Of a stretch of DNA of 32,971 nucleotides, positions 1-32,971 are shown piece after piece (positions within the stretch are counted from its first letter, which is position 1; each line of letters starts with the position of its first letter). The notes under the pieces are model-generated. The model had not been told where the DNA came from. It saw nothing but the letters and a program-made list of their open reading frames with translations, and made no database searches. Position numbers and translations under genes: made by a program. This stretch comes from a virus. Lineage: Duplodnaviria > Caudoviricetes. Location: positions 1 through 32,971 of the IMG/VR virus record IMGVR_UViG_3300031606_000003; one strand, 5' to 3'.

Positions 1-135
1 GAATCCGTACAAGCTTGGTTCTTAGATATGGTCGAGCGGGTTACGAAATGACCGACGACGAAAAGCCGAAGCCGAGCAAAGTTGACCGCGTGATTATCTG
101 CGCGCTTTGCGCCGGCTACGGTAAGACGTTCGGCG
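1..135 (+). repeat. Terminal overlap copy 1 (circular assembly)
   Basis: 1-135 equals 32837-32971 except position 9 (A) vs 32845 (T). Confidence 0.97.
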
Positions 136-362
136 TAAGGGAATCTCTCTCTTGCGTCGAGTGCGGCGGGTCGGGTCTTCTGCGGATTGTCGATAGCAAG
201 GTCGTCCGCAAAGTTCCGATGCTCGCCGAGATTAAATATAGTTGGTACGAGTTCGACTATACTGGCGAGCATCGGTCGCGGTCGCTCGAACGCAACGGAG
301 TAATATCTTTCTCCGACATCGAGTTCGACGATGAAGACGGCGACGGTATCTTATGGGAATGA
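48..362 (+). CDS. Hypothetical protein with DnaJ-type CxxCxGxG zinc finger
   Basis: CALCAGYG and CVECGGSG motifs; ATG at 48 forms an ATGA overlap with the stop of the 32690-32887 ORF across the join. Confidence 0.75.
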   Translation: MTDDEKPKPSKVDRVIICALCAGYGKTFGVRESLSCVECGGSGLLRIVDSKVVRKVPMLAEIKYSWYEFDYTGEHRSRSLERNGVISFSDIEFDDEDGDGILWE

Positions 363-844
363 ACACTTCCAAAAAAGAAAAGGTCGTTCGACTCCTAGCA
401 ATCGCGTCGGTGCTTACCGCGTTTATGTTCTTGACGAGTTGCTCTTCGTTATGGTCGACGGCGGGCGCGGGCGTCGGAGCCGGACTCGGTGCGCTTGTCT
501 CTCCGGTCGGCGCGGCGGTCGGCGCAGTCGGTGGCGCGCTCGGTGGTAGCTTGGTCGAAGAAGAAGACCGAAGCGAAGCCGCCGAACAACTCAATCGCGA
601 AGTCGTCGAAAGTTTAATCGCGGCGTCGAGCGACGAAGCGAAGAAACACGCGCTCGACATTGTTGCCGATTCGTCGGCGTCGGTTCTCGACGAAGTGAAA
701 AGCTTCATCGCATCGTTAGCGAAATGGTTGGCCGGTCTTTCCGTCGTTTACTTCATCGGTAAAATATTACTCAACCGTCGACAAGAAGAAGCACTCGTCG
801 AGCGCGTTAAGAACTTGGTCGGCAACGACGACGACAAGCGATGA
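359..844 (+). CDS. Lipoprotein with glycine zipper and C-terminal TM segment
   Basis: Basic N-terminus, hydrophobic core, lipobox LTS-C28; GAGVGAGLG...GAAVGAVGGALG zipper; hydrophobic WLAGLSVVYFIGKILL; ATGA overlap at 359-362. Confidence 0.8.
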   Translation: MNTSKKEKVVRLLAIASVLTAFMFLTSCSSLWSTAGAGVGAGLGALVSPVGAAVGAVGGALGGSLVEEEDRSEAAEQLNREVVESLIAASSDEAKKHALDIVADSSASVLDEVKSFIASLAKWLAGLSVVYFIGKILLNRRQEEALVERVKNLVGNDDDKR

Positions 845-951
845 ACGTTCGTCGGTACTGGGAAACGGCTCGACGCTTGGCGCGGGCAATACCGGTCGCG
901 CTCCGCGACGCCGCGGCGTATCTGCTCGACGTTTTAAGGGGCGTTAGGTAG
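841..951 (+). CDS. 36-aa cationic amphipathic peptide (not in ORF track)
   Basis: MNVRRYWETARRLARAIPVALRDAAAYLLDVLRGVR*; ATGA overlap with the lipoprotein stop. Confidence 0.6.
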   Translation: MNVRRYWETARRLARAIPVALRDAAAYLLDVLRGVR

Positions 952-1117
952 TCGAGCGGGCGGATACGTTGTCCTAAGCGCGTATTAGAGAAATAAAAAT
1001 AATCCCGTTTTGCCTATTGTGCTTACCGCGAAAGACGTCATAATTGTTGGCATGACGAGCATCACTCGACGCTCGCTAACTAACCAACTCTCTCTCTCTC
1101 TAGCACAAAAAACTAAA
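951..1117 (+). promoter_or_regulatory. Promoter-leader cassette copy A
   Basis: ATACG-N12-CGTAT (964-985), A-rich tract, TTGTGC-N16-CATAAT (1017-1044) containing GCTTACCG, ATG at 1052, CGAGC..GCTCG hairpin, (CT)7 at 1088-1101; homologous to 30201-30379 and 10853-10980. Confidence 0.8.
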
Positions 1118-1306
1118 ATGACTACTAACAACGAAATAACTATCGCCTTAACATACGAGCAAATGAAACTAATCGAAGGTTGCCTTCAACAAGAATGGAC
1201 TAGCCTTGTCTACAATGAAAAGGGGTCGAAGCTTGTCGCCGAGATAGCCGACAAGCGATGTCCGAAAATTATGGAAACATTAAAAGTTTTAAGAGAGAAA
1301 ATGTAA
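1118..1306 (+). CDS. Hypothetical protein (62 aa; possible longer form from ATG 1052)
   Basis: A-rich context AAAACTAAAATG; open frame. Confidence 0.7.
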   Translation: MTTNNEITIALTYEQMKLIEGCLQQEWTSLVYNEKGSKLVAEIADKRCPKIMETLKVLREKM

Positions 1307-1319
1307 CACTCGACGCAAC
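1304..1319 (+). repeat. Gene-end linker repeat copy 1
   Basis: TAACACTCGACGCAAC beginning at the stop codon, followed by a hairpin at 1326-1362. Confidence 0.8.
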
Positions 1320-1423
1320 CCAAGACCACGACCGCCGGCGATTCGATTCGCGGCGGTTGCGGCAATGAAAAAGGAACTCTCCTTAATCCGAACTTAAACT
1401 TAAACTCAAAATAAATTAGACCG

Positions 1424-2008
1424 ATGAAAAAAACTCCTGTAACTTTCTATCTCACGCTTGGACAAAAAGAAGCCGCGACTCAACTAATGAGCGACCGCGG
1501 AGCCTACTCGAAATCGAAATCCGAGGGTCGCCGTTACTACCAAATCCGCGACCGCATAGAAATAGCGGACTGGAAAGGTGGCGAAGTAAAAGTGTCAGCG
1601 ATTCAAGCCGACGCATTTTACGACGCGCTAGACTTGGCGGCTCTCGACTGCCATACTATCGGCGCGCCTTTCCGCGTATGGATTAAGATTCGCAAGGCGG
1701 TCGGCTCGGCGATAGGTCGCAAGGCGTCTCGACTCGACGCCGTAGGTCATGCGAAACCTTTGGTCGAGACGATAACTAAAGACGATGTCGCCGATGAAAA
1801 GACGCGCCAACTAATATCGCAGTACGAAACAGCGGAAGCGTTTTTCCAACAAATAATGGGTAGCGACCATGATTTTATCAGCCAAAGCTTTCGCGACTCG
1901 GCCAACGCTTTGTCTTGCGCACTTCGCCGCGAGGTGTTCGCTCAAATCCCCGCGCTTAAAACTGTAAACGTCATTGACGGCGAAGCGGTTTTAATAATCA
2001 AGAACTAA
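1424..2008 (+). CDS. Hypothetical protein; C-terminal domain paralogous to 30380-30616
   Basis: 194-aa ORF; QSFRDSANALSCALRREVFAQIPALK aligns with QSLRTSANDFACKLRRDIFARVPNLR. Confidence 0.8.
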   Translation: MKKTPVTFYLTLGQKEAATQLMSDRGAYSKSKSEGRRYYQIRDRIEIADWKGGEVKVSAIQADAFYDALDLAALDCHTIGAPFRVWIKIRKAVGSAIGRKASRLDAVGHAKPLVETITKDDVADEKTRQLISQYETAEAFFQQIMGSDHDFISQSFRDSANALSCALRREVFAQIPALKTVNVIDGEAVLIIKN

Positions 2009-2023
2009 CTCTCGACGCAACAA
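2004..2023 (+). repeat. Gene-end linker repeat copy 2
   Basis: ACTAACTCTCGACGCAACAA, identical to 2299-2318. Confidence 0.85.
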
Positions 2024-2045
2024 TTCCCAAACATAAATAAAACAA

Positions 2046-2303
2046 ATGTCAAACTTTACTTTCAATTACGACCATAGCGGTCTTGCTCACGAAGTCGCGA
2101 AAGCCTTAGCGTACACCGGCGAAAATATAGATTCGTCCGTTGCGTTTTGGTTAATCGGGGTCGCCGGCAAATCGCTCGAAGAAATCAACGGACACTTCCA
2201 CGACTTGCCGTTCCAAAAAGCGGTCGAAAAACTACTCCCTAGATACGCCTATAGGAAAGGGGCTATGCCTATCAAACTTACTTACGAGCCGGAAGACGAC
2301 TAA
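2046..2303 (+). CDS. Hypothetical protein
   Basis: 85-aa ORF with A-rich start context, between linker repeats. Confidence 0.75.
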   Translation: MSNFTFNYDHSGLAHEVAKALAYTGENIDSSVAFWLIGVAGKSLEEINGHFHDLPFQKAVEKLLPRYAYRKGAMPIKLTYEPEDD

Positions 2304-2318
2304 CTCTCGACGCAACAA
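2299..2318 (+). repeat. Gene-end linker repeat copy 3
   Basis: ACTAACTCTCGACGCAACAA, running into the terminator. Confidence 0.85.
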
Positions 2319-2354
2319 AGACCGTCGCCCTAACCGGCGGCGGTCTTTTTTTTT
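2317..2354 (+). terminator. Intrinsic terminator between convergent operons (possibly bidirectional)
   Basis: AAGACCGTCGCC-loop-GGCGGCGGTCTT followed by a T run. Confidence 0.85.
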
Positions 2355-3441
2355 ACACTTCAATCTCGCCGTCGAAGTTGGTCGCTAGATTATTGACTAA
2401 GTCTTCGCCGGCTCGTTCTTCCGCGCTCCGCTCAATCCAACTCGACAACTCGCCGCTCTCAATCGCGGCCGACTCGAAGCCGCCGCCGTCGGCGATATAT
2501 CCGTTGCGGAATCTGCGGCCGTCCGGCAATTCGTACTCGACGAAGTTCTTCTCCGTCGAAGCGTCGACTGGCGTGGCGAACGTAATCAGCTTCGGAATAT
2601 ACCGGTGGTCGTAACAGCCCGACGCTTGCAACTCGGCGGACAACGAATCAATCTTGCGGTGCGCGCACGACCAACGCGCATCGTCGCCGTCCGTCTCCGG
2701 CGTGGAGTGTAAGCAAGTGCGACAAGTCAAGGTCGGCATCTTCGAGCGGTGGCACGTCTCCGGAAAGTCGCAGAACTTACACTTGTACCAAGACGGGTCG
2801 TCGCTTATTTTCGCCGGCGGATTCGCGGCCGTAATAATCCGTCGCGCTTTTTCTAGCATCTCGTCGGACACGCTCGACTTAAACTTGACGCGCTCGGAAT
2901 ACAGTTCGTCGTTGTCTTTGTTGACCGTCATATAAAACGCCCGCTTCATGCCGGAGAACTTCATATAAACTTGCATCTGCGCGTAGTGTTCGGGCTTCGC
3001 TTTCTCGACGCCGTTTTTTACCAAGGGTCGGAACGCTTTGTTGCCGCTCGTCTTGAACTCCAAAACGTGCCAACTGGTCGGGGCTTCGACAAAGCCTTTT
3101 GCGGCTCCGTCCATGCTCCCGCCGAAGTGTCCGCCTATGTCGGAGAATCTAAATTGTTCGCCGTTAGAACCGACGTCATGCACGACCACGCCGGCCTTGC
3201 GTAGATACTCGACGAGACTTGGCTCTTCGCGATGTCCGCGAGCAAACAGTCGCAGTATCCGACCGGAATGTTCAACGCGCTCGACTCCGCGAAACGAGTA
3301 CCAAAGTTCGCGCTCGCACTCGCGCCCGATTGACGACGCGCCAAGGTGTCCGCGATACGGAGCGGGCGTCGAGTTGTTTTCTTGTTCGAGTATCTCGTCG
3401 ATACGCTCGACGGTTGTTTTCTTTTTAGGTAGTTCGGCCAT
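2353..3441 (-). CDS. Cas4-like PD-(D/E)XK exonuclease (phage recombination)
   Basis: HLGASSIGRECERELWY, GH, GSMDG, LEFKT, QMQVYM, CKFCDFPETC Fe-S type Cys cluster; additional Cys-rich C-terminus. Confidence 0.88.
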   Translation of the reverse strand: MAELPKKKTTVERIDEILEQENNSTPAPYRGHLGASSIGRECERELWYSFRGVERVEHSGRILRLFARGHREEPSLVEYLRKAGVVVHDVGSNGEQFRFSDIGGHFGGSMDGAAKGFVEAPTSWHVLEFKTSGNKAFRPLVKNGVEKAKPEHYAQMQVYMKFSGMKRAFYMTVNKDNDELYSERVKFKSSVSDEMLEKARRIITAANPPAKISDDPSWYKCKFCDFPETCHRSKMPTLTCRTCLHSTPETDGDDARWSCAHRKIDSLSAELQASGCYDHRYIPKLITFATPVDASTEKNFVEYELPDGRRFRNGYIADGGGFESAAIESGELSSWIERSAEERAGEDLVNNLATNFDGEIEV

Positions 3442-3462
3442 GTTATTTATTTTGATTGAGAG

Positions 3463-3494
3463 AAAAAAAGCAGAGCCGGCGAACCGACTCCGCT
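3463..3494 (-). terminator. Intrinsic terminator between SSB and exonuclease genes
   Basis: Minus strand AGCGGAGTCGG-TTCG-CCGGCTCTGCT then T run. Confidence 0.8.
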
Positions 3495-3515
3495 AAAAAA
3501 TAATCCTATGAAAAA

Positions 3516-4004
3516 TTAGAACGGAGTGTCGTTAGACTCGCCGCCGCTCCAAGGTTGCGCCGCCGGTTGCGGCTTGCTTGGAATGCTTCCGTCGGCTCCA
3601 CGCGCCGGCTTATACGACGCGACTTCGTTCGTCGCTTCATACCCGTTACTGGCCGGCCGCGTTTTTAATGCGACGACAAATGGTACGTCGTGAAGTTCCG
3701 CAGAATCATCGACGGATTGTTTGCCGACTGCTCGACATATATCCGCCAAGTCTCGCTCGGCTATCTCGACCGCGGTTGCGTTCGGATTGATTAAATTAAG
3801 TCTCGACCATACGCGGCGGCTTTTATATTCGCCGTCGAGAATCTCGATTGTTAGTTGTAGGTATTTACCCGTTCCGGCTTTCGTCGGCTTCATCTCCGAC
3901 TCGGAAATTATTACGTCGTAATCTCCGTTTGGTAGCGGGTCGTAGTTCGTTGCGGCACTCGCGGGAGCGTCGGCAACATTAAAAGTTCTTTCGAGGTTTC
4001 CCAT
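3516..4004 (-). CDS. DUF669-type single-stranded DNA-binding protein
   Basis: YDPLPNGDYDVII..SEMKPTKAGTGKYLQLTIEILDGEY; acidic tail ending DTPF; TAATG coupling places the start at 4004. Confidence 0.85.
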   Translation of the reverse strand: MGNLERTFNVADAPASAATNYDPLPNGDYDVIISESEMKPTKAGTGKYLQLTIEILDGEYKSRRVWSRLNLINPNATAVEIAERDLADICRAVGKQSVDDSAELHDVPFVVALKTRPASNGYEATNEVASYKPARGADGSIPSKPQPAAQPWSGGESNDTPF

Positions 4005-4789
4005 TAGTTTACTTTCGTTTTTGAGTTTATGGAAGTGCCGTCGCTTAATGCTTCGGCGATTGAGTTCGCGAGAGTCGACCACTTAAGCGGCATCGTCTCC
4101 GGTATGTCGTAACGACTCTTCGCTAAGTGCGTCGGTCGTTCTGTCGTATGAAGCAATCGTTCGCCCGACCCGACTGCGCGAGTGCGCTTCTGTCCGAATC
4201 CGGTGTCGCTTTCTTTCGTATGAACTTTATAGTTCGCGAAGCCGAGAACGTCCGCCCACTCTTGGAACATCGCGCTCGACGCTTTGTGCATCTTGGGTTG
4301 ATAGCGGTCATACGGTTCGGAATCCGGCGCGTCGAATCTTTTAACTTCGCAATGCGCGGTAAGCACGACGGTCATGTTGCGGTCGTTTCTTAGCGCGTTG
4401 AAGCCGTCGATTATCTGTCGCCAATAGTCGAGAGCGATAACGTACCCTTTGCCATAGCCAAAGTCTTCGATGTTCTCTTTGCCATGTAGCTTAGAAGTAT
4501 GACTCCAAACTAAAGGCTCGCACCAATCGAGCGAGTCGAGTACAACGGTGTCGAAGTCGTGGTCTTCTTTATATAAAGTTCGCAACGCTTCAATGACATC
4601 GTCGAAAGTTTTAGCAACTGGAAACGCGCTCGACTTAATGCCGGCAAGACCGTCTTCGGTGCGAATGAAAATCGGGTTCTTTGCTTCCGACGCGAACGTC
4701 GACTTACCGATACCATGAACACCATACAAAAGGATTCGCGGCGGCGCGGGTGTTCCGGTCTTGGCGATTGAGTTTAGGTCGATACTCAT
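4004..4789 (-). CDS. Sak4-like AAA_24 ATPase (single-strand annealing)
   Basis: Walker A GVHGIGKST, Walker B VVLDSLDW, LTAH, AKSRY; adjacent to SSB and exonuclease. Confidence 0.88.
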   Translation of the reverse strand: MSIDLNSIAKTGTPAPPRILLYGVHGIGKSTFASEAKNPIFIRTEDGLAGIKSSAFPVAKTFDDVIEALRTLYKEDHDFDTVVLDSLDWCEPLVWSHTSKLHGKENIEDFGYGKGYVIALDYWRQIIDGFNALRNDRNMTVVLTAHCEVKRFDAPDSEPYDRYQPKMHKASSAMFQEWADVLGFANYKVHTKESDTGFGQKRTRAVGSGERLLHTTERPTHLAKSRYDIPETMPLKWSTLANSIAEALSDGTSINSKTKVN

Positions 4790-5244
4790 ACGTTCAACTC
4801 CGAAATCTTGACCGCGACTTTTGCCGGTCGAGTTGTAATCGCTTCGAGCAATTCGTCGGCGTAAGGTAGTGCTATCTTCGCGCCTTTGCCACCAAGGCCA
4901 CTAAGCATATCGAGCAACGCTTTAAGTTTCGTCGCGTTGACTCCGTACTTGACTGGCAATAAGTCGAAGACTTCTCGGCCATACTTTTCGCGAAGTCGTT
5001 CCGCCGAAGCTTGGTCGACCGAGCGAGTCATTTTCGCGGTGGTTGTAATTTTGTAGTTCATCGACTCGACGGTCGAAGAGCCTTCGGATTTTACGCCGAT
5101 GATTGAGATTAACTTTTCTTCGAGTTCTATTCGATTCGCTTTTGCCATAGTCTCGCGAGACTTTGCGGCGATAAGTTGTTGGGAAAGAAGAGCGAATTGT
5201 TGTTGTTCGTCTTCGGTAAATGTTTGAGTATTGGTACTCGTCAT
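4786..5244 (-). CDS. Coiled-coil recombination-module protein (Gam/Gp157-like position)
   Basis: N-terminal coiled coil, ITTRPAKVAVKI C-terminal strand; typical position upstream of AAA_24; family not certain. Confidence 0.6.
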   Translation of the reverse strand: MTSTNTQTFTEDEQQQFALLSQQLIAAKSRETMAKANRIELEEKLISIIGVKSEGSSTVESMNYKITTTAKMTRSVDQASAERLREKYGREVFDLLPVKYGVNATKLKALLDMLSGLGGKGAKIALPYADELLEAITTRPAKVAVKISELNV

Positions 5245-5306
5245 GTTGTTACGTTTAGTTCGTGAAATTAAAAGCCGAGAGCGCAATGCTTCGACGTGGA
5301 AAGTGA

Positions 5307-5335
5307 AGTATGGGTTCGCCGATATTGAAAGTCAA
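5307..5335 (-). promoter_or_regulatory. Leftward sigma70-type promoter
   Basis: Minus strand TTGACT-N17-CATACT. Confidence 0.7.
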
Positions 5336-5350
5336 GCGCGTACCGCTTGA
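5332..5350. promoter_or_regulatory. Palindromic operator candidate overlapping both -35 boxes
   Basis: TCAAGCG-N5-CGCTTGA. Confidence 0.55.
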
Positions 5351-5376
5351 TTTTATATATTCTAATTTGCTAAGAT
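5347..5376 (+). promoter_or_regulatory. Rightward sigma70-type promoter
   Basis: TTGATT-N18-TAAGAT with a TGn extension. Confidence 0.6.
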
Positions 5377-5421
5377 ACTCGTCGCGGCAACTGGCCGCAT
5401 AAAACAAAAACAATCCTTACC

Positions 5422-5691
5422 ATGAAAGATAATAAAACTAATCTCGACATCGAGCGGGCGCGCTTGTTCTTACAACACCATAAGAAGTATATGGATATTC
5501 ACGACGCGACTGGACTCGGTTACTTTTGGCTCCAACGATTCGCGACCGGAAAGATTAAAGACCCGCGAGCGTCTTTACTTTCTCGACTACTAACATACAT
5601 CGACGAGCAAGCGGTCGTTCTCCCCGAATGGTTTACCGACTTGGGCGACATCGAGTTCCCTAGTATTAGAAAGACGGAGTCGGACGAATGA
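5422..5691 (+). CDS. Cro/XRE-like helix-turn-helix regulator
   Basis: IHDATGLGYFWLQRFATGKIKDPRASLLSRL fits the XRE HTH pattern; first gene of the rightward operon. Confidence 0.75.
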   Translation: MKDNKTNLDIERARLFLQHHKKYMDIHDATGLGYFWLQRFATGKIKDPRASLLSRLLTYIDEQAVVLPEWFTDLGDIEFPSIRKTESDE

Positions 5692-7931: not shown

Positions 7932-7944
7932 CGCAAGACGGAAG

Positions 7945-8197
7945 AAATGACAGAAGTCTGTCGAAAGTAAAACGCTATCCGATAACCGGTTGCGAAAGAA
8001 CCGGTCGACTTTCGTCAAGAATTAGACCCCACCCCTGTCGGCGTCAACAAATAGAGAGAGGTGTGTGTGTGTCTGTCTATGACATAAGTATTATATATAT
8101 ATATATATATATAGTATATTATATATATAAACATAGTTAAACGCTATAAAACAGAATCAAGAACTTTCGTCAAACTTTCGTCAAACTTTCGTCAAGC
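7945..8197. other. Putative replication origin (iterons plus AT-rich unwinding element)
   Basis: AACTTTCGTCA x3 tandem at 8162-8194, another copy at 8008-8018, inverted degenerate copies at 7948-7968, (TA)n tract at about 8089-8130; directly downstream of the primase-helicase gene. Confidence 0.7.
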
Positions 8198-8198
8198 A

Positions 8199-8594: not shown

Positions 8595-8606
8595 TATCTT
8601 CGTTGC

Positions 8607-24593: not shown

Positions 24594-25414
24594 TGAGTTG
24601 GACGATAACATTTGACGGAAACGCGCTCGACGAAAGCATCGGAGCTTCAATCGACAAGGTTCGCGATACGCCGGTAACAAAGATAAAAGAAACCGGCTTG
24701 CTCTCGGACGGCTCCGCAATCGAGCAGTACTCGAAACGCGGTCGACGTATAACACTTAGCGGAACCGTAATCGGAACAAGCACGACGCAACTCGACACTA
24801 GAGTTAGTAATATTGTCGAGTCGTTTTCTAATCCGTCGGGCGGAGTGTTGTCGCTTTCAGCCGGTCGAGAGATATATGCGTATCCGAAACTCGGCTCGAT
24901 AGAATTAGTTAAGGGCGCGTCGAATCTCGCGCTAACTTTCTCGGTCGAACTTTATACGGAATCTCCTTACTGGCGGTCGACGACAGTAACGACCGAAGAT
25001 ATTCATCTCGCGACGTTGTCGGCCAACTCTACGACGGCGACGGTGGCTTATGCGGGAACGGCTCCGGTTCGACCGGTAATCCAAATAAAGCAACACGCGT
25101 CGGCCGCGGCCGCGGTGCGCGACCCGCTAGTGTTAAGCATAGGAAACATCTCGCTCGACTCTCCGGAATATATTAAAATAACGAACGCGGCACTCGGCAA
25201 CCTAGCCGATATTATAGTTTTGGACGGAACGGACGAGTCGGTCTATCTAAAGAACGACACTTCGTCTTCGACCAAACCGCCAAGGAGAATCGACGGCGCG
25301 TTCTTCCGGTTACAAAAAGGAGACAATACAATCTTTCTCGACGCGCATACTACCGGCGGGCATATAACGGCGTCATTGATTTATAGAGAGACTTTTTACT
25401 CGTCGGGTTTTTAA
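24593..25414 (+). CDS. Distal tail protein (Dit-like)
   Basis: RRITLSG, ESPYW, GTAPVRPVIQI, FFRLQKGDNTI; follows the tape measure gene. Confidence 0.82.
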   Translation: MSWTITFDGNALDESIGASIDKVRDTPVTKIKETGLLSDGSAIEQYSKRGRRITLSGTVIGTSTTQLDTRVSNIVESFSNPSGGVLSLSAGREIYAYPKLGSIELVKGASNLALTFSVELYTESPYWRSTTVTTEDIHLATLSANSTTATVAYAGTAPVRPVIQIKQHASAAAAVRDPLVLSIGNISLDSPEYIKITNAALGNLADIIVLDGTDESVYLKNDTSSSTKPPRRIDGAFFRLQKGDNTIFLDAHTTGGHITASLIYRETFYSSGF

Positions 25415-25416
25415 TC

Positions 25417-27939
25417 ATGGCTACGGTCTACAATCCTAAAAGTAAGATTGTCGTCGTCGTCGACGATGTCGGCACGTTCAACGCCGCGCAACGCGTAACG
25501 CTCGGCGCGTTCTCGTCAAACCTACTATCGTGCGAGTGGACATACTTGCCTACCGACGGCGGACTAAGAGACGCGTCGGTTAAAATAAATCTACCCGTCG
25601 GAAGTGTGGCGCGCGAAGCGTTCGACGGGGGGCGTTTCGGGTTAATTAGTATTTACCGGTCGAATCATCTCGCCGAGCTTCCGATGTCGGGAAGCAATGT
25701 CGATATAACTCAAAACTTCGACAACAACGAGCGGTCGTACCTACTCTTTCAAGGCTTACTGGAGAATCCGTCGTCGAGTAGTGTGTCCAACACCGTATCT
25801 TTTAAGGTCAAAGGGTACTCGTCATGGCTCAAAGAATTAGAATATACAGGAACGTTTACCGATATAGCTATCGGCACTATATTCTCGACGGTAATGGCCG
25901 ACGTTACTGCGCGTAGCTATCAGCCTATAAAAAGTTATGTTACGGAAGACATGACATTTACGGGCAACGTGCCGAACTCGTTTCATGTTTTACATAGAAC
26001 GTTGACAGGAACTTACGAGTACAAGAGCGCGAAGCTAACGAAGATTCTCGAAGACCTACAGTCGGCCGCCGGCGGGCAAGCGGCGGTAACGTTCGGCGTT
26101 CGTTGCGGGTCGACGAGCGATAGTTACGGCGAAGCGTATCTTCTCGAATGGCGCGGGAAGTCTTGGACGCCGGATTATCAAGAGGACTCCAACCTTCTCG
26201 ACGCTATTACGCCGATACCATATACGCGGGCGACAGGGTACAACGTGGAGGTAGACACTTCGAGCATAGTAAACTCGGTCGAGGTGTATGGCGCAGATAA
26301 TCCGGAGGGAACCATACCGTCTTTTTACTCTTCCCAAGAGTTGGTAATGAGCCGCGAGAAATACGGCCGACGTCATAAAACACTAGTCAATGCGAGCTTG
26401 ACTTCCGACCGTTCTTGCGAAGAGTACGCGAAGAACTGGTTAGTCGGCAGAGCGAATCCAACCGTAAACGTTTCGGTAGAATGGTCAGACGAGCAAACGT
26501 TAAACGACTCGCAAAGAGTCGGCGGGTCGACGCTCGCGAAACCGCACGACATACTTCACTATATGCGCGACATGAACTCGATGTTGCACGTTACGAATGC
26601 GGAGACGAGTAGCTTGTTAATCGACGGCAAGTACTCCGACGATGTCGGCATCGACAGTCGACCGACGGCGATTCAGTTATCGAAAGTAGCGAGCGGCAAT
26701 CCGCCGGTTATAAAAATCGACACAACACTCGCGCCGTTCTATGGAACAAACTGGTCGAGTGCCGATACGTTCGGACACCCGAACAAGGCCGTAACTTACG
26801 CGCAATATTCGACAACACGCTCGACGCTCTTCGTCGTTCGCTTCGGATTAAAACTCGACGGCTCGGACGCCGGCGACTTAAACAACTTGGTCGTATGGGA
26901 ACACTCCAGAAGATTAAGAATAAGGCTTGTTCAATCGGGCGGAGCCGGAACAAACTTCGGCGCGACGATTGATACTTGGCGCGGTGGCTCGGTTGGTTGG
27001 GTCGACGAACTCGCGACGTATGGACACAAAGAAGTCTTGACTCATTTACTACCGACCGCCGACGGCGGCATCGCAATCGCGCTACAACTTGGCGGACTAT
27101 TGTCGACCGTTCCGACCGTCAGTCTTTGGGCGTCGACGAGCGGCTCCGAAGCGTGGCGAACATTGCTCGCGACGACGAACGCGGTCGACGTTGTCTTCGC
27201 AAGCGCGACGGATTTTATTTTATACACTCAGTTGGCCGGTCAGAACGAAGACTATATTCTAATCGGCGTGGGAACGAAAACAGACGGCGCATCTTTGGAG
27301 CCGGCCACGTCGGGCAACTTCGAGATATATTCGGCGCGGTGTTACGAGGGAGAACTAAACGCGACGACTGGCGACTTCGAGTACGGTCGAGGACTCGACG
27401 CCGAGGGGTCTAGCACGACCGACAAAGCGGGTTCGTTTTTATATCAAGAAGCGTTCTCGCACTTGCCGCGCATCGGGTATAGTGCCGGCCGTTTAATGAC
27501 GCTCGAACCGTCTTTCAAGAAGACCGTATCGGGCAACGATTATCACTTCGTAAAATGGACGCGAGCGCAACTCAACGCAAGCGGCGTCGAGATATACGAC
27601 GGCTTTTCTAACGACGGCTATCATGCTCGACTATACTCCCCGCAAACCGGCGACGGCCTTGTTGTTGGCGACGGAGTAACGACCGCGACCAACTGGGCGA
27701 CGACCGAAGATTTAAGGTCGCCGAGTTGGCGGCTCGGCTCGACCGGCGAATATAGCAAAAAACTCGGCGTCGGTGTATCTATCAGACCGAGAGAGATAAG
27801 GTTCAAGTACGCCGGCGAACACTCGCCGTTAAAAATATCCGTCAAGGGCGGCGTCAGCGAAGACTCTTTAGTTAAGGCGGCGTCGGAGATAATGAAAAGA
27901 ATGGACGACGCAGAACGCGACTCGAACGCATCGTTATAA
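25417..27939 (+). CDS. Tail tip hub (Tal-like) protein with large internal insertion
   Basis: Follows Dit; FKVKGY, IVNSVEVYG, SREKYGRRHK..EEYAKNWL hub-like motifs; beta-rich central region. Confidence 0.72.
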   Translation: MATVYNPKSKIVVVVDDVGTFNAAQRVTLGAFSSNLLSCEWTYLPTDGGLRDASVKINLPVGSVAREAFDGGRFGLISIYRSNHLAELPMSGSNVDITQNFDNNERSYLLFQGLLENPSSSSVSNTVSFKVKGYSSWLKELEYTGTFTDIAIGTIFSTVMADVTARSYQPIKSYVTEDMTFTGNVPNSFHVLHRTLTGTYEYKSAKLTKILEDLQSAAGGQAAVTFGVRCGSTSDSYGEAYLLEWRGKSWTPDYQEDSNLLDAITPIPYTRATGYNVEVDTSSIVNSVEVYGADNPEGTIPSFYSSQELVMSREKYGRRHKTLVNASLTSDRSCEEYAKNWLVGRANPTVNVSVEWSDEQTLNDSQRVGGSTLAKPHDILHYMRDMNSMLHVTNAETSSLLIDGKYSDDVGIDSRPTAIQLSKVASGNPPVIKIDTTLAPFYGTNWSSADTFGHPNKAVTYAQYSTTRSTLFVVRFGLKLDGSDAGDLNNLVVWEHSRRLRIRLVQSGGAGTNFGATIDTWRGGSVGWVDELATYGHKEVLTHLLPTADGGIAIALQLGGLLSTVPTVSLWASTSGSEAWRTLLATTNAVDVVFASATDFILYTQLAGQNEDYILIGVGTKTDGASLEPATSGNFEIYSARCYEGELNATTGDFEYGRGLDAEGSSTTDKAGSFLYQEAFSHLPRIGYSAGRLMTLEPSFKKTVSGNDYHFVKWTRAQLNASGVEIYDGFSNDGYHARLYSPQTGDGLVVGDGVTTATNWATTEDLRSPSWRLGSTGEYSKKLGVGVSIRPREIRFKYAGEHSPLKISVKGGVSEDSLVKAASEIMKRMDDAERDSNASL

Positions 27940-27947
27940 TATAGATA

Positions 27948-28544
27948 ATGGTTTTCCCCGACGATATTCCCGACAAGCCTAGCTTCCTCTTCGACGGGGT
28001 CGACTCCGTAACCCGAAAGGACTTACAGGGCGTCGAAGATAAGCTCTCCGCCGCGCAAGCTTTGATAGGAACGCGGGCGGACGGCGAGCCGCTATCCGTT
28101 GGAGAAATGCTCTATGGTAACTGCCAAGCGGCGTCCGGAGTTATCGAGTTCTCCATGAACTACATCGACGGCGGTACTGTTACAATCGACGGGGAAACTT
28201 ACACATATACCGACATGGTGAGCCTTGTCTCGCAAGTAAAGTTTTACTACCTACCCGACAAAAGCGACACGCTTTTCGGCGACAAGAAGCCCATGGTTAT
28301 GTCGTCGCTAAACCGAGGACTTCCACGAAACACATCAGCTACGCCAAGCAGACCGGAGGAAGCTTGGACGTCGTTCGAGACGGCTATAGTAACGTCGACA
28401 TACTTCCAAATTAGTAGCAAACTTTTCTACGGAAGAGACAACGCTTCTAACATTTTGGAAGTTAGACTACCTTGGTTTGCCATTTTGCCGAGAGGCGGTT
28501 GGACAAATAGAGTATCCGAGATAATAGACCCCAACGCGGAATAA
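27948..28544 (+). CDS. Putative tail fibre/receptor-binding protein 1
   Basis: FP..D..V..DLQ..D.L.A.Q..IG N-terminal anchor motif; position after the hub. Confidence 0.6.
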   Translation: MVFPDDIPDKPSFLFDGVDSVTRKDLQGVEDKLSAAQALIGTRADGEPLSVGEMLYGNCQAASGVIEFSMNYIDGGTVTIDGETYTYTDMVSLVSQVKFYYLPDKSDTLFGDKKPMVMSSLNRGLPRNTSATPSRPEEAWTSFETAIVTSTYFQISSKLFYGRDNASNILEVRLPWFAILPRGGWTNRVSEIIDPNAE

Positions 28545-28549
28545 ATAAC

Positions 28550-29275
28550 ATGGCAATCTCTAAAGGCAGTAGCAACAAAGTCTCTTCTCTTTTTCCGTCG
28601 AGTGCCGAAGACTTTACGAACATCGGGTCGCCCGACAGCATTACGGCCGCTTGGGCGAATAGGCTTTTTTCCGGAACTGCGGAATTGTGTCGGCAACAAG
28701 GGTCGCAACCGTTGTCGTTGCCGTCAACAATCTCGCCGTCGTGGACTCCGGCGGACTTAGGAGAATTGGCGGCCGGTGTAAAAATATGGCAAGCAAGTTT
28801 TGGGTTTGACACTTATGCTCCGGAAAACTCGTATGTATGGAATGGAGACACTCATTACTTTTCGCTATGGACTCTCTTCCCATTCATAGATACCGGAGAT
28901 TGGAGTTCAGACCGAGACCATTATGTGGAAATGCCAAGCAATCTATTTTCTTTCACAAACAGTAATTCTTCGGGTAAAGACGTAGGGTTTTGGAGTTTCG
29001 GCTCGGTAATACAGTACGAGGGAGAGGACGCGAGTTTTCTAGCCACGATGACAACTGGCGGATTCGACACTTATGTCAGAGGTTCGACCGATACGGGAAT
29101 AGACCACTTTATGCTAAACGAATTGGAAGAGACTCCGACTAATCCAATAGTCTACGCGCACGTTACTCTCGACCGAGGTAATTCCGGAAGTGGCGAGATT
29201 TTGCCGGCTCCGGATAAGGATTATCTAAAAGACCTAAAGTTAAAGATGTGTTTCATGGAGTTGCCTTTTAGTTAA
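28550..29275 (+). CDS. Putative tail fibre/receptor-binding protein 2
   Basis: FPSSAEDFTN..DSITAAWANRL..G anchor motif; aromatic-rich C-terminus. Confidence 0.6.
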   Translation: MAISKGSSNKVSSLFPSSAEDFTNIGSPDSITAAWANRLFSGTAELCRQQGSQPLSLPSTISPSWTPADLGELAAGVKIWQASFGFDTYAPENSYVWNGDTHYFSLWTLFPFIDTGDWSSDRDHYVEMPSNLFSFTNSNSSGKDVGFWSFGSVIQYEGEDASFLATMTTGGFDTYVRGSTDTGIDHFMLNELEETPTNPIVYAHVTLDRGNSGSGEILPAPDKDYLKDLKLKMCFMELPFS

Positions 29276-29277
29276 AC

Positions 29278-29898
29278 ATGGCGTCATTTTACCCTAGATA
29301 TTTAGACAAGGTTGTAACCATACGCGGCTCGGCCGTAACCGGCAAGCCGCTAACCGCGCCGTCGCCGGAAGTGTTTAACTGGTTGTCGGACAAGCTAGTC
29401 AGTACGCAAAAAGAAATGCTTTATGACTACGCGAACTTAGGCGATACCTTTGGAGTCGCGGCGGAAGACCGAGACATTAAGACCATGACTAAAGAGTTGC
29501 TAAGGACGGAGGTAGGGAACGCAAGCTTCTTTCAAGAAGACGCCGACCAAGTGGGGCTTGACCCGAATTATTATATAACGAAAACTATTCTTTTCGCTCA
29601 TACCACGAACGGGGGAGCGGCGGCCAACCAACGCTTTCTTCCCAACATTGAACCTTGGCTAGAGGTAAGAAATGTAAGTGTAAAGCATAACGCTAGTGCC
29701 GCAATTACCGACCCCATAAATGACTATACTTGGGTGCTAGGTTATTACAAAAACTCCGTAAACCCCGTCATTTTATATGACGCAAGCGGCTACCCTTACG
29801 GATTTACCATAAGGCTCTACACAGGAGCGTCGGAAGACTACGTTAGTTTTTATGTACGTTACATTGCCATGCAAGGCTTTCATCATCATCAACGATAG
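29278..29898 (+). CDS. Putative tail fibre/receptor-binding protein 3
   Basis: YPRYLD..FNWLSDKLVSTQKEM anchor motif; GFTIR..VRYIAM C-terminal strands. Confidence 0.6.
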   Translation: MASFYPRYLDKVVTIRGSAVTGKPLTAPSPEVFNWLSDKLVSTQKEMLYDYANLGDTFGVAAEDRDIKTMTKELLRTEVGNASFFQEDADQVGLDPNYYITKTILFAHTTNGGAAANQRFLPNIEPWLEVRNVSVKHNASAAITDPINDYTWVLGYYKNSVNPVILYDASGYPYGFTIRLYTGASEDYVSFYVRYIAMQGFHHHQR

Positions 29899-29906
29899 CG
29901 AGAGCA

Positions 29907-30200
29907 ATGACCGACCAACAACAACAACGCGACTCGCTCTCGACTCGACTAGAAAGAATCGAAGACAAGGTCGACCGACTTGCCGAAAGTTTAATTACAG
30001 TTGCGCGAGTTGAAGAACGCATCGCAACAATATTGTCGAACCAAGTAGAAACGAACAAGCGACTCGGTCGACATAGCAATCGACTCGACGACGTCGAGAC
30101 TGGACTAACAAAGACGCAAGGTATCGGGCGGGTCGCGGAGCGGTTGTTTTGGGTGGCGGCGACGGCGGCGATAGCGGTCTACATGGGCGCGACGTCGTAG
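29907..30200 (+). CDS. Coiled-coil plus C-terminal TM protein (XhlA/holin-like)
   Basis: RLERIEDKVDRL..RVEERI..RLDDVE coiled coil, LFWVAATAAIAVYMG TM; end of the late operon. Confidence 0.65.
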   Translation: MTDQQQQRDSLSTRLERIEDKVDRLAESLITVARVEERIATILSNQVETNKRLGRHSNRLDDVETGLTKTQGIGRVAERLFWVAATAAIAVYMGATS

Positions 30201-30379
30201 CGTCGAGCGGATACGTTGATATAACGGCGTATTAGAGAACTTTGAGAAATCGAAATAAAGTTCGGTTTTGCCTATAGACGCTTACCGTTAAAGGTGTCAT
30301 AATGTCCAACATGACGAGGGTCAATCAGACGCTCGATACTCACTCACTCACTCTCTCTCGACCCGAACAAAAACTAACA
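30201..30379 (+). promoter_or_regulatory. Promoter-leader cassette copy B
   Basis: ATACG-N12-CGTAT (30211-30232), GTTTTGCCTAT, TAGACG-N17-CATAAT (30275-30303) containing GCTTACCGTTAAAG, ATG 30311, CGAG..CTCG hairpin, CTCA/CT tract. Confidence 0.8.
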
Positions 30380-30616
30380 ATGAAAATCAACAAACTAACT
30401 TTAGAATCACTCGTCCAAGAATGGGCGAAAGCCGAACAAGCTTTTCTCTTAATATGCGGAGCGTATTCTGCGCCGCAAAGTCTTCGCACAAGCGCGAACG
30501 ACTTCGCTTGCAAACTTCGCCGAGACATCTTCGCAAGAGTGCCGAACCTAAGAGACGTCTCTCTCGACTCGAACGGCAACGGCGTTCTCTCTATCAGCGA
30601 GGACGACCAACGATGA
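30380..30616 (+). CDS. Hypothetical protein, paralog of the 1424-2008 C-terminal domain
   Basis: Protein alignment by eye; A-rich start context. Confidence 0.75.
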   Translation: MKINKLTLESLVQEWAKAEQAFLLICGAYSAPQSLRTSANDFACKLRRDIFARVPNLRDVSLDSNGNGVLSISEDDQR

Positions 30617-31065
30617 AAATCCACGAGCTAAAACTAAACTCCCAACTCTTAGAACTCTTGACGATGAACATCGACGAACTCAAATCGAGACTCTCGAAGA
30701 TTAACCATAACCAAGAACCAAGAGTGCCGACCGGCAGTTGCTACGAGTACGCTTGTCGTCTCTTGCTCGGTCGAACAATGGCGCACCCGACGTTCGGCAA
30801 CTTGCAAGACGAGTGCGGCGACATCGACTTCACTAACGCGACGCTCGTCCATGGAAGACCGTCGGGCAATCAACACGAGAACGGCCACGCTTGGGTCGAG
30901 GTCGACGACCTTGTAATCGACCCGTCGATTAAGCCTTGCTACATTACGTTGAGAGAATCTTATTACGAACGCGGCGGCATCGACGAAGCGGACAACGAGA
31001 GATACACTTCCGACGAAGCGTTCGACGCATTATCTAAGTTCCAACATTGGGGAGACTGGCGGTAA
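30613..31065 (+). CDS. Transglutaminase/papain-fold protein
   Basis: GSCY..LVHG..GHAWVE..VIDP gives a Cys-His-Asp triad; ATGA coupling at 30613. Confidence 0.72.
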   Translation: MKIHELKLNSQLLELLTMNIDELKSRLSKINHNQEPRVPTGSCYEYACRLLLGRTMAHPTFGNLQDECGDIDFTNATLVHGRPSGNQHENGHAWVEVDDLVIDPSIKPCYITLRESYYERGGIDEADNERYTSDEAFDALSKFQHWGDWR

Positions 31066-31625
31066 TGACCGACTTCCTAACGTGCCAACTTTGCAACGGG
31101 TCGAAGATACTACTCGACGACCCTTGTCCTTGCGACTCCGTCGCTTACTTAAACTCAATAAACAATAAAAAATCCGAAATGAAAAACGACTCTTCTTCTT
31201 CTTCTCACGCTCCGTCGATAACGCCGGTCGAGTTCGCCGAACGATTCGACGCCGCCATGGGCGAACTCGATAACCTAAACGTCGCGACCGTTATCATGGC
31301 GGGGCTTCATAACCTAGCGTATGACGCGCTCGCATTTACGGCGAGCCATGACGCCGGAACTTTAATGCTCGACGTCGACGGTTGTCCGCGTCTTCCTAGT
31401 CGGGAAGAACTGGACGACCTAGAACCGAAGTCGCCGGTGCGCGCTCGCATTAACTCCGGCGAGTTTCTTATGGGCGACAAGACTTTCGACGTGCTGTTCG
31501 ACGAGGAATCCGACGGCGGCGTTAATCTAATCGCGACCATGCTTGGCGAACAAACCGTTTACGGCGTCGCGTTCGTGCAAGCCATGGAAGACGAAGACGA
31601 AAACAAGGACGGCGACAATGAGTAA
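31065..31625 (+). CDS. Hypothetical acidic protein with N-terminal CxxC..CxC (alternative start 31179)
   Basis: TAATG coupling; CQLCNG..CPC. Confidence 0.65.
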   Translation: MTDFLTCQLCNGSKILLDDPCPCDSVAYLNSINNKKSEMKNDSSSSSHAPSITPVEFAERFDAAMGELDNLNVATVIMAGLHNLAYDALAFTASHDAGTLMLDVDGCPRLPSREELDDLEPKSPVRARINSGEFLMGDKTFDVLFDEESDGGVNLIATMLGEQTVYGVAFVQAMEDEDENKDGDNE

Positions 31626-31839
31626 CGACATTGACCAACAAAGCGACCGCAACTTAGCGGTCGCCAAGTTCGATAGCTTCTGCTCGTTTTGCGGGAAGCC
31701 GACTCGCGCCAAGCAGTCGGTAACTTGGATTCGAGTCGAGCGCGAACGCTCCGGCGGATTCTCTAACAAGCGCAAGGTCGGGCATTTTAATTGCTACGGC
31801 GACGGCGCGTCTCACTTAACAACTTACTCTCGACGCTAG
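31618..31839 (+). CDS. Small zinc-finger protein (CxxC..HxxC)
   Basis: AKFDSFCSFCGK..W..HFNC. Confidence 0.7.
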   Translation: MSNDIDQQSDRNLAVAKFDSFCSFCGKPTRAKQSVTWIRVERERSGGFSNKRKVGHFNCYGDGASHLTTYSRR

Positions 31840-31851
31840 TCGACGAACATC

Positions 31852-32127
31852 ATGCACAAAACAAAAACAAAATCCACTTGCGATAACGCGGCCGCGTTGC
31901 GCTTCCGAATCCTACGCGAACGAAAGCCGCTCGCGATAATCACGTTCGACGTCGACACCGAACCGGACGAAGTACAGAAGACGACCGTCTACGGCGTCAG
32001 CGAACTCGACGGCGAGGAACGTTACATCGAACACTTCATCGGCGCGCCGCGTCTTTCCGACAACCGACGAGTCGCTCTTGCGGCCATGGTCGTCTTCCCT
32101 AATCATCAACTAAAATTAACACCATGA
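31852..32127 (+). CDS. Hypothetical protein
   Basis: ATCATG start context; ATGA coupling to the next ORF. Confidence 0.6.
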   Translation: MHKTKTKSTCDNAAALRFRILRERKPLAIITFDVDTEPDEVQKTTVYGVSELDGEERYIEHFIGAPRLSDNRRVALAAMVVFPNHQLKLTP

Positions 32128-32321
32128 AAAACGAACAAATACTAAAAGATTTTCTCGGAAAAAGATACGCTCTTTTCCTTGAACAACTCGACCAACTTCC
32201 GGAAGAACTGCGTCGACTCGTAAACGATAACCGAGAAACTCTCGAAGATATGTTAGCCGCCGGCTTCGACTTGGGTATGTTGACCGCCGCTTGCGAAACG
32301 AAAGACGAGGTCGAGCAATGA
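32124..32321 (+). CDS. Hypothetical protein
   Basis: ATGA overlaps at both ends. Confidence 0.65.
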   Translation: MKNEQILKDFLGKRYALFLEQLDQLPEELRRLVNDNRETLEDMLAAGFDLGMLTAACETKDEVEQ

Positions 32322-32455
32322 AAAATCTGCTCGAACTAATAACTAACAACTTGCCGACTCGCGGCGAGTTAATCCAAGCGACCGCCGCGTCGTTCTTCCT
32401 ACTGGTCGCGCTAGTCTTAATCTTCGCGACCGACGAATCATGGAGACTTAACTAA
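32318..32455 (+). CDS. 45-aa single-TM protein (not in ORF track)
   Basis: MKNLLELITNNLPTRGELIQATAASFFLLVALVLIFATDESWRLN*; ATGA and TAATG coupling. Confidence 0.65.
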   Translation: MKNLLELITNNLPTRGELIQATAASFFLLVALVLIFATDESWRLN

Positions 32456-32685
32456 TGACCGATATGTTCTTTTCAAGACCCGACGACGAATCGCCGCCGG
32501 TCGACGTCGAGCCGGACTTTGCCGGCGACACGACCGAGCGCGAAGCGTGGCTCCGAATTGTTGGCAACACCATATTCGACTTCTTGCGGACGTGGCTAAT
32601 CATAGTCGCGACCGGCGCGTTGATAATTGTCCTAATACGAATCGTCGTCATACCGGCTTTCTTTCTCGCGGACTTGGTATCTTAA
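32455..32685 (+). CDS. Small membrane protein
   Basis: Acidic N-terminus, long hydrophobic WLIIVATGALIIVLIRIVVIPAFFL. Confidence 0.65.
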   Translation: MTDMFFSRPDDESPPVDVEPDFAGDTTEREAWLRIVGNTIFDFLRTWLIIVATGALIIVLIRIVVIPAFFLADLVS

Positions 32686-32689
32686 AGCT

Positions 32690-32887
32690 ATGAAAGAAAC
32701 CGCAGAAGAAAAACGGCGTCGGAAGAACGCCGAGTACGTCAAGCGATACAAGGCGAAGCGCGAGCGCGTGGAGTTCTTTCTACCGCAAGGCAGTCGGGAT
32801 AAATTACGAACGGCCGTTACGGGAGCCGGCAAGCACGAATCCGTTCAAGCTTGGTTCTTAGATATGGTCGAGCGGGTTACGAAATGA
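32690..32887 (+). CDS. Ribbon-helix-helix (Arc/CopG-like) DNA-binding protein
   Basis: Basic helix, then RVEFFLP strand, SRDKLRTAV helix, G..SVQAWFLDMVE helix. Confidence 0.65.
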   Translation: MKETAEEKRRRKNAEYVKRYKAKRERVEFFLPQGSRDKLRTAVTGAGKHESVQAWFLDMVERVTK

Positions 32888-32971
32888 CCGACGACGAAAA
32901 GCCGAAGCCGAGCAAAGTTGACCGCGTGATTATCTGCGCGCTTTGCGCCGGCTACGGTAAGACGTTCGGCG
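32837..32971 (+). repeat. Terminal overlap copy 2
   Basis: Matches 1-135 with one mismatch; ORFs read continuously across the join. Confidence 0.97.

What the first reader, a model, noticed from the sequence alone, without database searches (positions are those of the whole stretch)
1..32971. Genome-wide strand polarisation of CCAG/CTGG and CTGA/TCAG
Seen (by-eye counts, approximate): the + strand has about 50 CTGG (all ACTGG as far as I saw) but only one CCAG (about 26906), and about 45 TCAG but no CTGA. GAGG also seems far commoner than CCTC. The CCAG bias follows the genome strand, not gene direction: in the minus-strand operon 2353-5244 ACTGG still occurs on + (about 2567, 3073, 3649, 4617, 4952) and Trp codons there are never preceded by C (GAT TGG, TAT TGG), whereas GAC TGG and TAC TGG are common in + genes. 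Established: type III restriction enzymes need two inversely oriented asymmetric sites, and T7 escapes EcoP15I because its sites are co-oriented. Inference: this phage has co-oriented short asymmetric sites to evade type III-like or another strand-sensing defence. CTGA is partly explained by TGA avoidance and rare CTG codons.
Basis: partly seen in the sequence, partly recalled or inferred. Interest (0 to 1): 0.8.

Follow-up and report, generated by a model that had tools for sequence, protein, structure and literature searches.

The report
One-strand restriction words, evenly spaced ACTGG
A seawater virus keeps about fifteen short DNA words on one strand only, likely to dodge host enzymes that cut only between oppositely facing sites, and it spaces one of them, ACTGG, unusually evenly, which suggests a needed signal whose reader is unknown.

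Summary
Confirmed and broader than reported. The window is a complete 32.8 kb lambda-like siphovirus. On +: CCAG 1 / CTGG 53 (all ACTGG), CTGA 0 / TCAG 47, CCTC 3 / GAGG 71. Sixteen words defined on + genes are missing from + in the held-out minus operon (0 vs 52 expected) but occur on its coding strand (23), so polarity follows the genome strand. It survives 532 substitutions in a 90% relative; a 71% relative has its own nine words. GCATC, GGACT and de novo GNAATC (70/0) equal published type III specificities, and the pipeline recovers T7's CAGCAG (0/36). Best reading: T7-style escape from many type III-like enzymes; known principle, extreme breadth, host unknown. New: ACTGG alone is evenly spaced (gap CV 0.56, P=3e-6, first of 1,300 words; no gap over 1,362 bp), unlike the other polarised 4/5-mers or T7's sites; the 90% relative lost only clustered copies (p=0.048, post hoc). 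It is likely a kept signal. First candidate reader is the phage HNH nuclease (absent from the relative that has no ACTGG); host Chi-like site, primase site or chance remain open.

The parts
1..32836 (+). Complete circularly permuted genome of a lambda-like siphovirus; about 15 asymmetric 4-6-mers absent from + and present on -; 40 further words avoided on both strands
   Evidence: gene families
32837..32971 (+). 135-bp duplicate of positions 1-135 (assembly overlap, 1 mismatch), dropped from most counts
261..32405 (+). 53 co-oriented ACTGG sites, mean gap 620 bp, range 71-1362, in all three frames (14/14/18 in + genes, 5 in - genes, 2 intergenic); none forced by amino-acid sequence
2353..5244 (-). 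Minus-strand recombination operon (Cas4-like exonuclease, DUF669 SSB, Sak4/AAA_24, unknown); held-out test region where the polarity does not flip
16163..16704 (+). Cluster of four close ACTGG sites; three are lost in the 90% relative L136 while all five isolated sites in the aligned 5.6 kb are kept
9004..9447 (+). Stand-alone HNH endonuclease (147 aa); not found in relative G001, which has no ACTGG; candidate reader of ACTGG (inferred, untested)
5688..7931 (+). Prim-Pol/PriCT-2 primase; 82% identical in G001; weaker candidate reader
1327..32533 (.). 59 CACGA/TCGTG sites (46 +, 13 -), evenly spaced when strands are pooled (CV 0.59, P=1e-5, about 0.01 after correction): tentative second signal
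26906..26909 (+). The single CCAG on +, in the variable tail gene
12911..19310 (+). Terminase small and large (gpA-type), head-tail joining, lambda-type portal, fused protease-capsid; fixes the lambda map orientation (+ = top strand)

Best explanation
This seawater siphovirus has removed about fifteen asymmetric 4-6-base words from one genome strand while keeping them on the other, likely to escape a panel of host type III-like restriction enzymes that cut only between oppositely facing sites, and it keeps one word, ACTGG, at even intervals, likely as a needed signal. Shown: the one-strand absence, its independence from gene direction, its upkeep through site turnover, its change of vocabulary between relatives, and the even spacing of ACTGG. 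Inferred: (a) each polarised word is the site of a hemimethylating, inverted-pair-cutting enzyme (type III, or ISP/MANTIS-like) somewhere in the host population, about 0.75; the 40 both-strand words are the ordinary type II counterpart. (b) ACTGG is held by a cost-benefit balance: CCAG/CTGG is otherwise purged from both strands, but one ACTGG is needed within about every 1.4 kb, about 0.75 that the spacing is selected. (c) Its reader is most likely the phage's own HNH nuclease acting as a one-strand nickase, about 0.3; sites on both strands would then cause double-strand breaks, which would also explain CCAGT = 0.
For: Held-out minus operon 0 vs 52 expected, coding strand 23; + genes 13 forbidden/458 tolerated vs - genes 23/0 on coding strands, p=1e-30. 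G001 (71% identical): 9 words of its own, held-out 2 vs 13.3; L138 shares CTGA 0/14, ATTTC 0/9, GTGAG 0/12 but not CCTC (44/44). GCATC and GGACT are type III specificities in Blow 2016 table S4 (PMC4752239); GNAATC, found de novo (70 vs 0, 20.4 expected), equals M.Vpa2008II; 4-5-base one-strand motifs are typical of type III. Positive control: T7 CAGCAG 0/36, T3 6/48, as in PMC3874151. ACTGG: CV 0.56, 6 of 2 million simulations, first of 1,300 words; P<=5e-5 among 358 places where proteins allow it; both halves separately p=3.5e-4 and 8e-4; isolated sites kept 5/5, clustered 1/4 in L136. HNH not found in G001; its 3 homologues sit on ~33-kb contigs whose Sak4 is in one 90% cluster.
Against: No host found, so no cognate enzyme or methylome. 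The headline words TCAG, GAGG and ACTGG/CCAGT are not whole-word entries of Blow's tables, and CCAG appears there only as type II/IIG; none of six words was in the one held supplement of the marine methylome paper. Two exact matches among 12 polarised 5-mers is near chance (about 41 distinct 5-mer motifs in the table by eye count, about 1 match expected). GCATC is also a type II site. Fifteen specificities imply a large host pan-defence, and Rusinov 2018 (PMC6286503) saw no systematic strand-asymmetric avoidance in cultured phages. The kept orientation is the commoner one in only 10 of 16 words (p=0.23). GCCCC, GCCCT, GTGAG and TGATG are weak under the strict null and a listed population variant creates GCCCT. 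On 21.8-kb slices ACTGG evenness is not significant after correction (0.23-0.56; best control locus 0.058). ACTGG excess is modest (46 vs 28.8, rank 65 of 1,024). The L136 test is post hoc with 9 sites. The HNH link rests on one complete genome lacking both, and HNH specificity is untested.
Confidence: 0.6

Rival explanations
1. All polarised words, ACTGG included, are tolerated type III-like sites; the even spacing is chance.
For: Same panel evidence as above. About 1,300 words were scanned; on shorter slices the signal is no better than the best control loci. CTGG is at expectation under the strict null (53 vs 56.5). A CCAGY row labelled type III exists, with 0% detected and no candidate gene.
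Confidence: 0.15
2. The panel is type III-like escape, and ACTGG is a Chi-like site read by the host AddAB/RecBCD-type helicase-nuclease, protecting DNA ends (rolling-circle tails, restriction breaks) anywhere on the genome.
For: It lies on the top strand of the lambda-oriented map, the active orientation of Chi in lambdoid phages; MD8 has 32/0 (PMC12315714). A pentamer Chi exists in B. subtilis. No anti-RecBCD gene was detected.
Against: Chi-rich lambdoid phages lack recombination modules and cluster Chi near the right end; this phage has Sak4, SSB and exonuclease and even spacing. G001 and L138 share several avoided type II sites, hinting at related hosts, yet lack the lattice.
Confidence: 0.2
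3. ACTGG/CCAGT is the priming site of the phage Prim-Pol on the displaced strand of one-way replication; gaps under 1.4 kb set Okazaki-size fragments.
For: Spacing and co-orientation fit; AEP primases can use defined sites (RepB' ssiA/B, PMC4538821).
Against: G001's primase is 82% identical but G001 has no ACTGG and no comparably even word (best p=2e-3 of 1,334). ACTGG does not fill gaps left by other CTG triplets (rotation P=0.25).
Confidence: 0.1
4. ACTGG (and CACGA) are protective marks: sites methylated or otherwise modified at a density that a missing-mark defence (BREX, DISARM, phosphorothioate type) reads as self.
For: Two independent evenly spaced words (independent of each other by rotation); one-strand marks are typical of such systems.
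Against: No methyltransferase or modification gene found in the phage; no known system was found that rewards even spacing; CACGA is borderline after correction.
Confidence: 0.1
5. The polarity reflects a strand-sensing force other than inverted-pair cutting (single-strand nucleases acting on the displaced strand, direction of DNA entry) or strand-biased mutation.
For: The kept orientation is sometimes the rarer one under uniform codons (CATCT, GCATC, CATCA); the three exact type III matches all have the recognition strand on +.
Against: Composition skews are mild; the vocabulary changes between relatives with the same replication genes; words are removed to near zero as whole 4-6-mers. A shared strand is also what cooperation between different type III enzymes predicts (EcoP1I with EcoP15I, PMC6158743).
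Confidence: 0.1

Closest known systems
Phage T7 escape from EcoP15I (36 co-oriented CAGCAG sites); type III restriction-modification
   Same: Asymmetric sites present in one orientation only; the same pipeline gives T7 0/36 and finds 10 polarised words in T7.
   Different: Here 3 four-mers and 12 five-mers are polarised (T7: six-mers only), polarity is shown across an oppositely transcribed operon, the host is unknown, and ACTGG is evenly spaced where T7's sites are random.
Strand-biased depletion of MANTIS and type III sites in Pseudomonas phages (bioRxiv 10.64898/2026.09.23.753747); type ISP enzymes
   Same: One-strand depletion as an answer to inverted-site preference.
   Different: MANTIS sites are 6 bp; most words here are 4-5 bp; no cognate system identified.
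Chi-rich lambdoid phages LLS and MD8 (PMC12315714)
   Same: Co-oriented short site on the top strand of a lambda-type map.
   Different: They lack recombination modules and cluster an octamer near one end; this phage has Sak4/SSB/exonuclease and spreads a pentamer evenly.
Motif-nicked phage genomes (Rembedalsseter, tf; PMC11780129)
   Same: Motif all on one strand, inside and outside genes, function unknown.
   Different: Those are 9-base motifs, about 13 per genome, unevenly placed, with nicks shown by native reads; here 53 pentamers, evenly placed, nicks not shown.
Type II restriction-site avoidance in lytic phages (PMC6286503)
   Same: 40 words such as GATC, GCWGC, GTSAC, GGNCC are purged from both strands.
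   Different: That survey reported no systematic strand-asymmetric avoidance; this genome is a strong counter-example.

Membership tests
Type III strand-bias escape (T7/EcoP15I kind) | Asymmetric site present in one orientation only, beyond codon expectation | tested here: met
Type III strand-bias escape (T7/EcoP15I kind) | Polarity follows the genome strand, not transcription | tested here: met
   0 vs 52 in held-out minus genes; Fisher p=1e-30
Type III strand-bias escape (T7/EcoP15I kind) | Words equal known type III specificities | tested here: inconclusive
   By-eye match for GCATC, GGACT, GNAATC against 84 rows; TCAG, GAGG, ACTGG not listed; 5-mer match rate near chance; no enrichment test run
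Type III strand-bias escape (T7/EcoP15I kind) | Host encodes the cognate Mod-Res and hemimethylates the site | not testable with these tools
   host not found
Type III strand-bias escape (T7/EcoP15I kind) | Resistance lost when an inverted site is added | not testable with these tools
   needs culture or purified enzyme
Chi-like recombination site (ACTGG) | Co-oriented in the lambda-active orientation | tested here: met
   53/0 on the strand carrying terminase genes
Chi-like recombination site (ACTGG) | Phage lacks a recombination module; sites clustered at one end (LLS/MD8 class) | tested here: not met
   Sak4, SSB, exonuclease present; even spacing
Chi-like recombination site (ACTGG) | Enriched and leading-strand skewed in the host; alters AddAB/RecBCD | not testable with these tools
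   host unknown
Motif-nicked phage genome (ACTGG) | Motif on one strand only | tested here: met
Motif-nicked phage genome (ACTGG) | Nicks at the motif in native DNA | not testable with these tools
   only assembled contigs available
Motif-nicked phage genome (ACTGG) | Long (9-base), few, unevenly placed motifs as in the tf/Rembedalsseter group | tested here: not met
   no consensus beyond 5 bases; 53 evenly spaced copies
Prim-Pol priming site (ACTGG) | Site kept in relatives with the same primase | tested here: not met
   G001 primase 82% identical, 0 ACTGG

The most novel reading that the evidence does not exclude
A phage has built a genome-wide lattice of one co-oriented pentamer, one copy within every 1.4 kb, inside a word family it otherwise purges, and a strain-specific phage HNH nickase writes one-strand nicks at it, which would stall translocating restriction enzymes or seed recombination and strand-displacement replication; at the same time all its type III-like sites are aligned to one strand to avoid cross-activation between different enzymes, so the genome spells out the defence repertoire of an uncultured marine host.
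Probability: 0.25. Interest if true: 0.85.

Novelty: new variant of a known kind. Interest (0 to 1): 0.62.

Why it matters
Co-orientation escape rests largely on T7 and one recent Pseudomonas survey, and a 2018 survey found no systematic signal. Here it is massive, shown across an oppositely transcribed operon, kept under site turnover, and changes vocabulary between relatives, so polarised and doubly avoided words give a testable list of type III-like and type II specificities for an uncultured marine host, usable to match the phage to a methylome. The even ACTGG spacing points to positive selection on a 5-base signal inside coding DNA. If the HNH nicks it, the long-open question of why some phage genomes carry one-strand nicks gains a small system with a natural negative control (G001).

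Tried and rejected
Host search failed: capsid, terminase alignment and tail tube against genome contigs gave only 41-60% or no relatives; cultured phages under 50%; BLAST of 12900-32800 against 401 genomes each of the phyla of G005 and G007 gave 6 and 1 weak hits, and the two spacer-length ones checked (L433, L434) are GC-rich coding DNA without CRISPR repeats; 1-12899 was not searched this way. Gene-direction and codon explanations rejected. Raw-count polarisation misleads: L068, L077 and L051 score 10-11 by raw counts but 1, 0, 0 under the codon null. No extended consensus around ACTGG; no fixed period; no shorter core or partner word; no evenly spaced analogue in G001 among 1,334 plain and 4,407 plain-plus-gapped words. 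HNH: no further genomes in viral contigs, only generic PDB hits, model too poor to use (pLDDT 46.7). Primase: no PDB hit. Atlas gave nothing above 0.8 for 1424-2008. Read laying lists only 40 variants per call (637 and 705 not shown); the first 40 were scored (one clustered ACTGG lost, two exceptions removed, one GCCCT gained), the second 40 were not. A computed enrichment test of the published type III list was not run, which leaves open whether the matches exceed chance. Majority-orientation prediction not met (10 of 16). Supplements of the two bioRxiv preprints (MANTIS motif list) and most tables of PMC8919816 were not seen and may hold further matches. Paper searches for prior reports of multi-word polarisation or evenly spaced co-oriented motifs found none describing this; subscription papers such as Kruger 1995 (seen only as a reference) were not searchable.
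Full report
What the window is. The last 135 bases repeat the first 135 with one mismatch, so the window is a complete, circularly permuted 32,836-bp genome. It encodes a gpA-type terminase, lambda-type portal, fused protease-capsid, tail tube, tape measure and Dit, a Prim-Pol/PriCT-2 primase, RusA, a stand-alone HNH, a MoxR-type ATPase pair, and one minus-strand operon (2353-5244: Cas4-like exonuclease, SSB, Sak4). No integrase, methyltransferase, endolysin or anti-RecBCD gene was detected. All 24 runs listed as holding its DNA are seawater or marine metagenomes; eight were laid and cover most bins. The host was not found.

The observation. Exact counts confirm it: CCAG 1 / CTGG 53 (all ACTGG), CTGA 0 / TCAG 47, CCTC 3 / GAGG 71. 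Against 300 synonymous-codon shuffles of the + genes the missing orientations are expected 33, 57 and 101 times. From + genes alone I defined 16 non-redundant words absent from + but near expectation as reverse complement. In the held-out minus genes they occur 0 times on the genome + strand (52.1+-6.2 expected) and 23 times on the coding strand (42.8 expected); in intergenic DNA 3 against 27. A null that also keeps the next base leaves the main words far below expectation and the minus operon at 0 vs 39.9, but weakens GCCCC, GCCCT, GTGAG and TGATG. A gapped scan added GNAATC, 70 on + against 0 of 20.4 expected. Forty further words are avoided on both strands.

Relatives. Tolerated sites turn over freely: 79 shared, 42 lost, 22 gained. 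G001 (about 71% identical, 42% GC) has nine polarised words of its own, also strand-bound (2 vs 13.3 in its minus genes), and CCAG 0 on both strands. L138 shares some words and not others. So the habit is clade-wide and the vocabulary moves quickly, as expected of host defences.

Benchmarks. With one whole-genome pipeline: window 18 words (3 four-mers, 12 five-mers), G004 19 (mostly six-mers), T7 10 (all six-mers, including CAGCAG 0/36), G001 9, T3 4, CRP-811 3, G003 2, S-LBS1 2. Of 41 unrelated loci of 14-22 kb, 40 had 0-2 polarised 4/5-mers and one (G004) had 6, against 12-13 for copies of the window. Multi-word polarisation is thus not unique, but this genome is extreme for short words.

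Mechanism of the panel. Type III enzymes methylate one strand and cut only between inverted sites; T7 escapes EcoP15I with 36 co-oriented sites (PMC3874151 and PMC12707154, passages). MANTIS and type III sites show one-strand depletion in Pseudomonas phages (bioRxiv 10.64898/2026.09.23.753747, passages and section 10). Blow 2016 assigns 4-5-base one-strand motifs mostly to type III (PMC4752239, passages). By eye against its 84 type III rows, GCATC, GGACT and GNAATC match exactly, CATCA lies inside two listed sites, and three of G004's 19 words match exactly. Two 5-mer matches are near chance; the gapped match is harder to get by chance. TCAG, GAGG and ACTGG are not listed. Rusinov 2018 found no systematic strand asymmetry (PMC6286503, passages). 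The kept orientation is not simply the commoner one (10 of 16). The three exact matches all carry the recognition strand on +, which cooperation between different enzymes would favour (PMC6158743 and PMC3553950, passages; one Res with three Mod in the Mbo45V preprint, passages), but three cases prove little and the CCAG family points the other way. The step from pattern to enzyme is inference.

ACTGG is different. Its 53 gaps have CV 0.56 (random 0.97): 6 of 2 million simulations, first of 1,300 words, about 0.004 after correction; the longest gap is 1,362 bp. Seven gaps are under 200 bp (14.6 expected) and none over 1,400 (5.5 expected). It holds among the 358 places where proteins allow the word and in each half. 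The other polarised 4/5-mers are random or clumped, as are T7's sites. No site is forced by amino acids and all frames are used. In L136 all five isolated sites are kept and three of four clustered ones lost (p=0.048, post hoc), a pattern not seen for other tolerated words (20/36 vs 53/76). Against: on 21.8-kb slices the signal does not pass correction and resembles the best of 83 control loci; excess is modest; G001 has no analogue. CACGA/TCGTG pooled over strands is a tentative second case (P=1e-5). Since every other NCTGG is purged, the simplest reading is a costly word kept because one copy is needed every kilobase or so.

Who reads it. The HNH is the only nucleic-acid enzyme among the nine window genes without a match in G001, its homologues are confined to about 33-kb contigs of the same species cluster and diverge faster (68-84%) than Sak4, and one-strand motifs mark nicks in other phages (PMC11780129, passages; PMC3517423 listing only). 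That small phage HNH proteins nick 3-5-base sites is recalled, not checked. A Chi-like role fits the orientation (PMC12315714 and bioRxiv 10.1101/2021.07.08.451572, passages) but not the gene content or spread. A primase site fits the spacing (PMC4538821, passages) but not G001. I put these at about 0.3, 0.2 and 0.1, a protective mark at 0.1 and chance at 0.15.

Verdict. Real and larger than reported; works like T7-type escape from type III restriction, membership unproven without a host; the evenly spaced ACTGG lattice was not found in the papers searched. Two unchecked notes of this scan mention evenly spaced words in other phages; they are leads only. New variant of a known kind, interest 0.62.

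Noticed in passing
window 1309, 2011, 2306: CTCGACGCAAC follows the stop codons of three successive small genes; possible promoter, operator or processing signal.
   Followed up: no
window 957-992 and 30204-30239: 36-nt repeat (83%) upstream of two blocks of window-specific genes; 1424-2008 and 30302-30616 look paralogous at their C-termini by eye.
   Followed up: no
window gene starts: No Shine-Dalgarno motif; A-rich leaders, often A at -3. Recalled as typical of Bacteroidota and some PVC bacteria; a host lead only.
   Followed up: partly
G004 (L016, L132-L133): Unrelated phage with 19 polarised words, three equal to published type III sites; a second strong case.
   Followed up: partly
L425 (phage T7): Besides CAGCAG, nine further six-mers are polarised, two containing the StyLTI site and one of the GNAATC family.
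   Followed up: no
G001 (L128-L129): CCAG absent from both strands (0 vs 35.7 and 0 vs 94.1), like CCGG, GATC, GGCC; suggests a 4-base asymmetric two-strand restriction site in its host. It is 42% GC against 52% for the window at 71% identity.
   Followed up: partly
window 9004-9447: HNH homologues in the same species cluster differ by 16-32%, mostly in the N-terminal helix, while Sak4 differs by under 10%.
   Followed up: partly
window 30613-31065: Conserved small phage protein with YunG-like features (Atlas 0.92-0.95; family carried by 10% and 72% of members of two clusters).
   Followed up: partly
window 353-844 and 29907-30200: Glycine-zipper lipoprotein-like and XhlA-like membrane proteins (both below cut-off) but no recognisable endolysin.
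   Followed up: no
window 25417-29898: Tail genes are the most variable part (28-55% to G001; replaced in run X3) and hold several of the exceptions to the polarity (26906, 27986, 28218, 29244).
   Followed up: no
L051, L053, L064, L074, L077: Several distant relatives avoid CCAGA on both strands.
   Followed up: no
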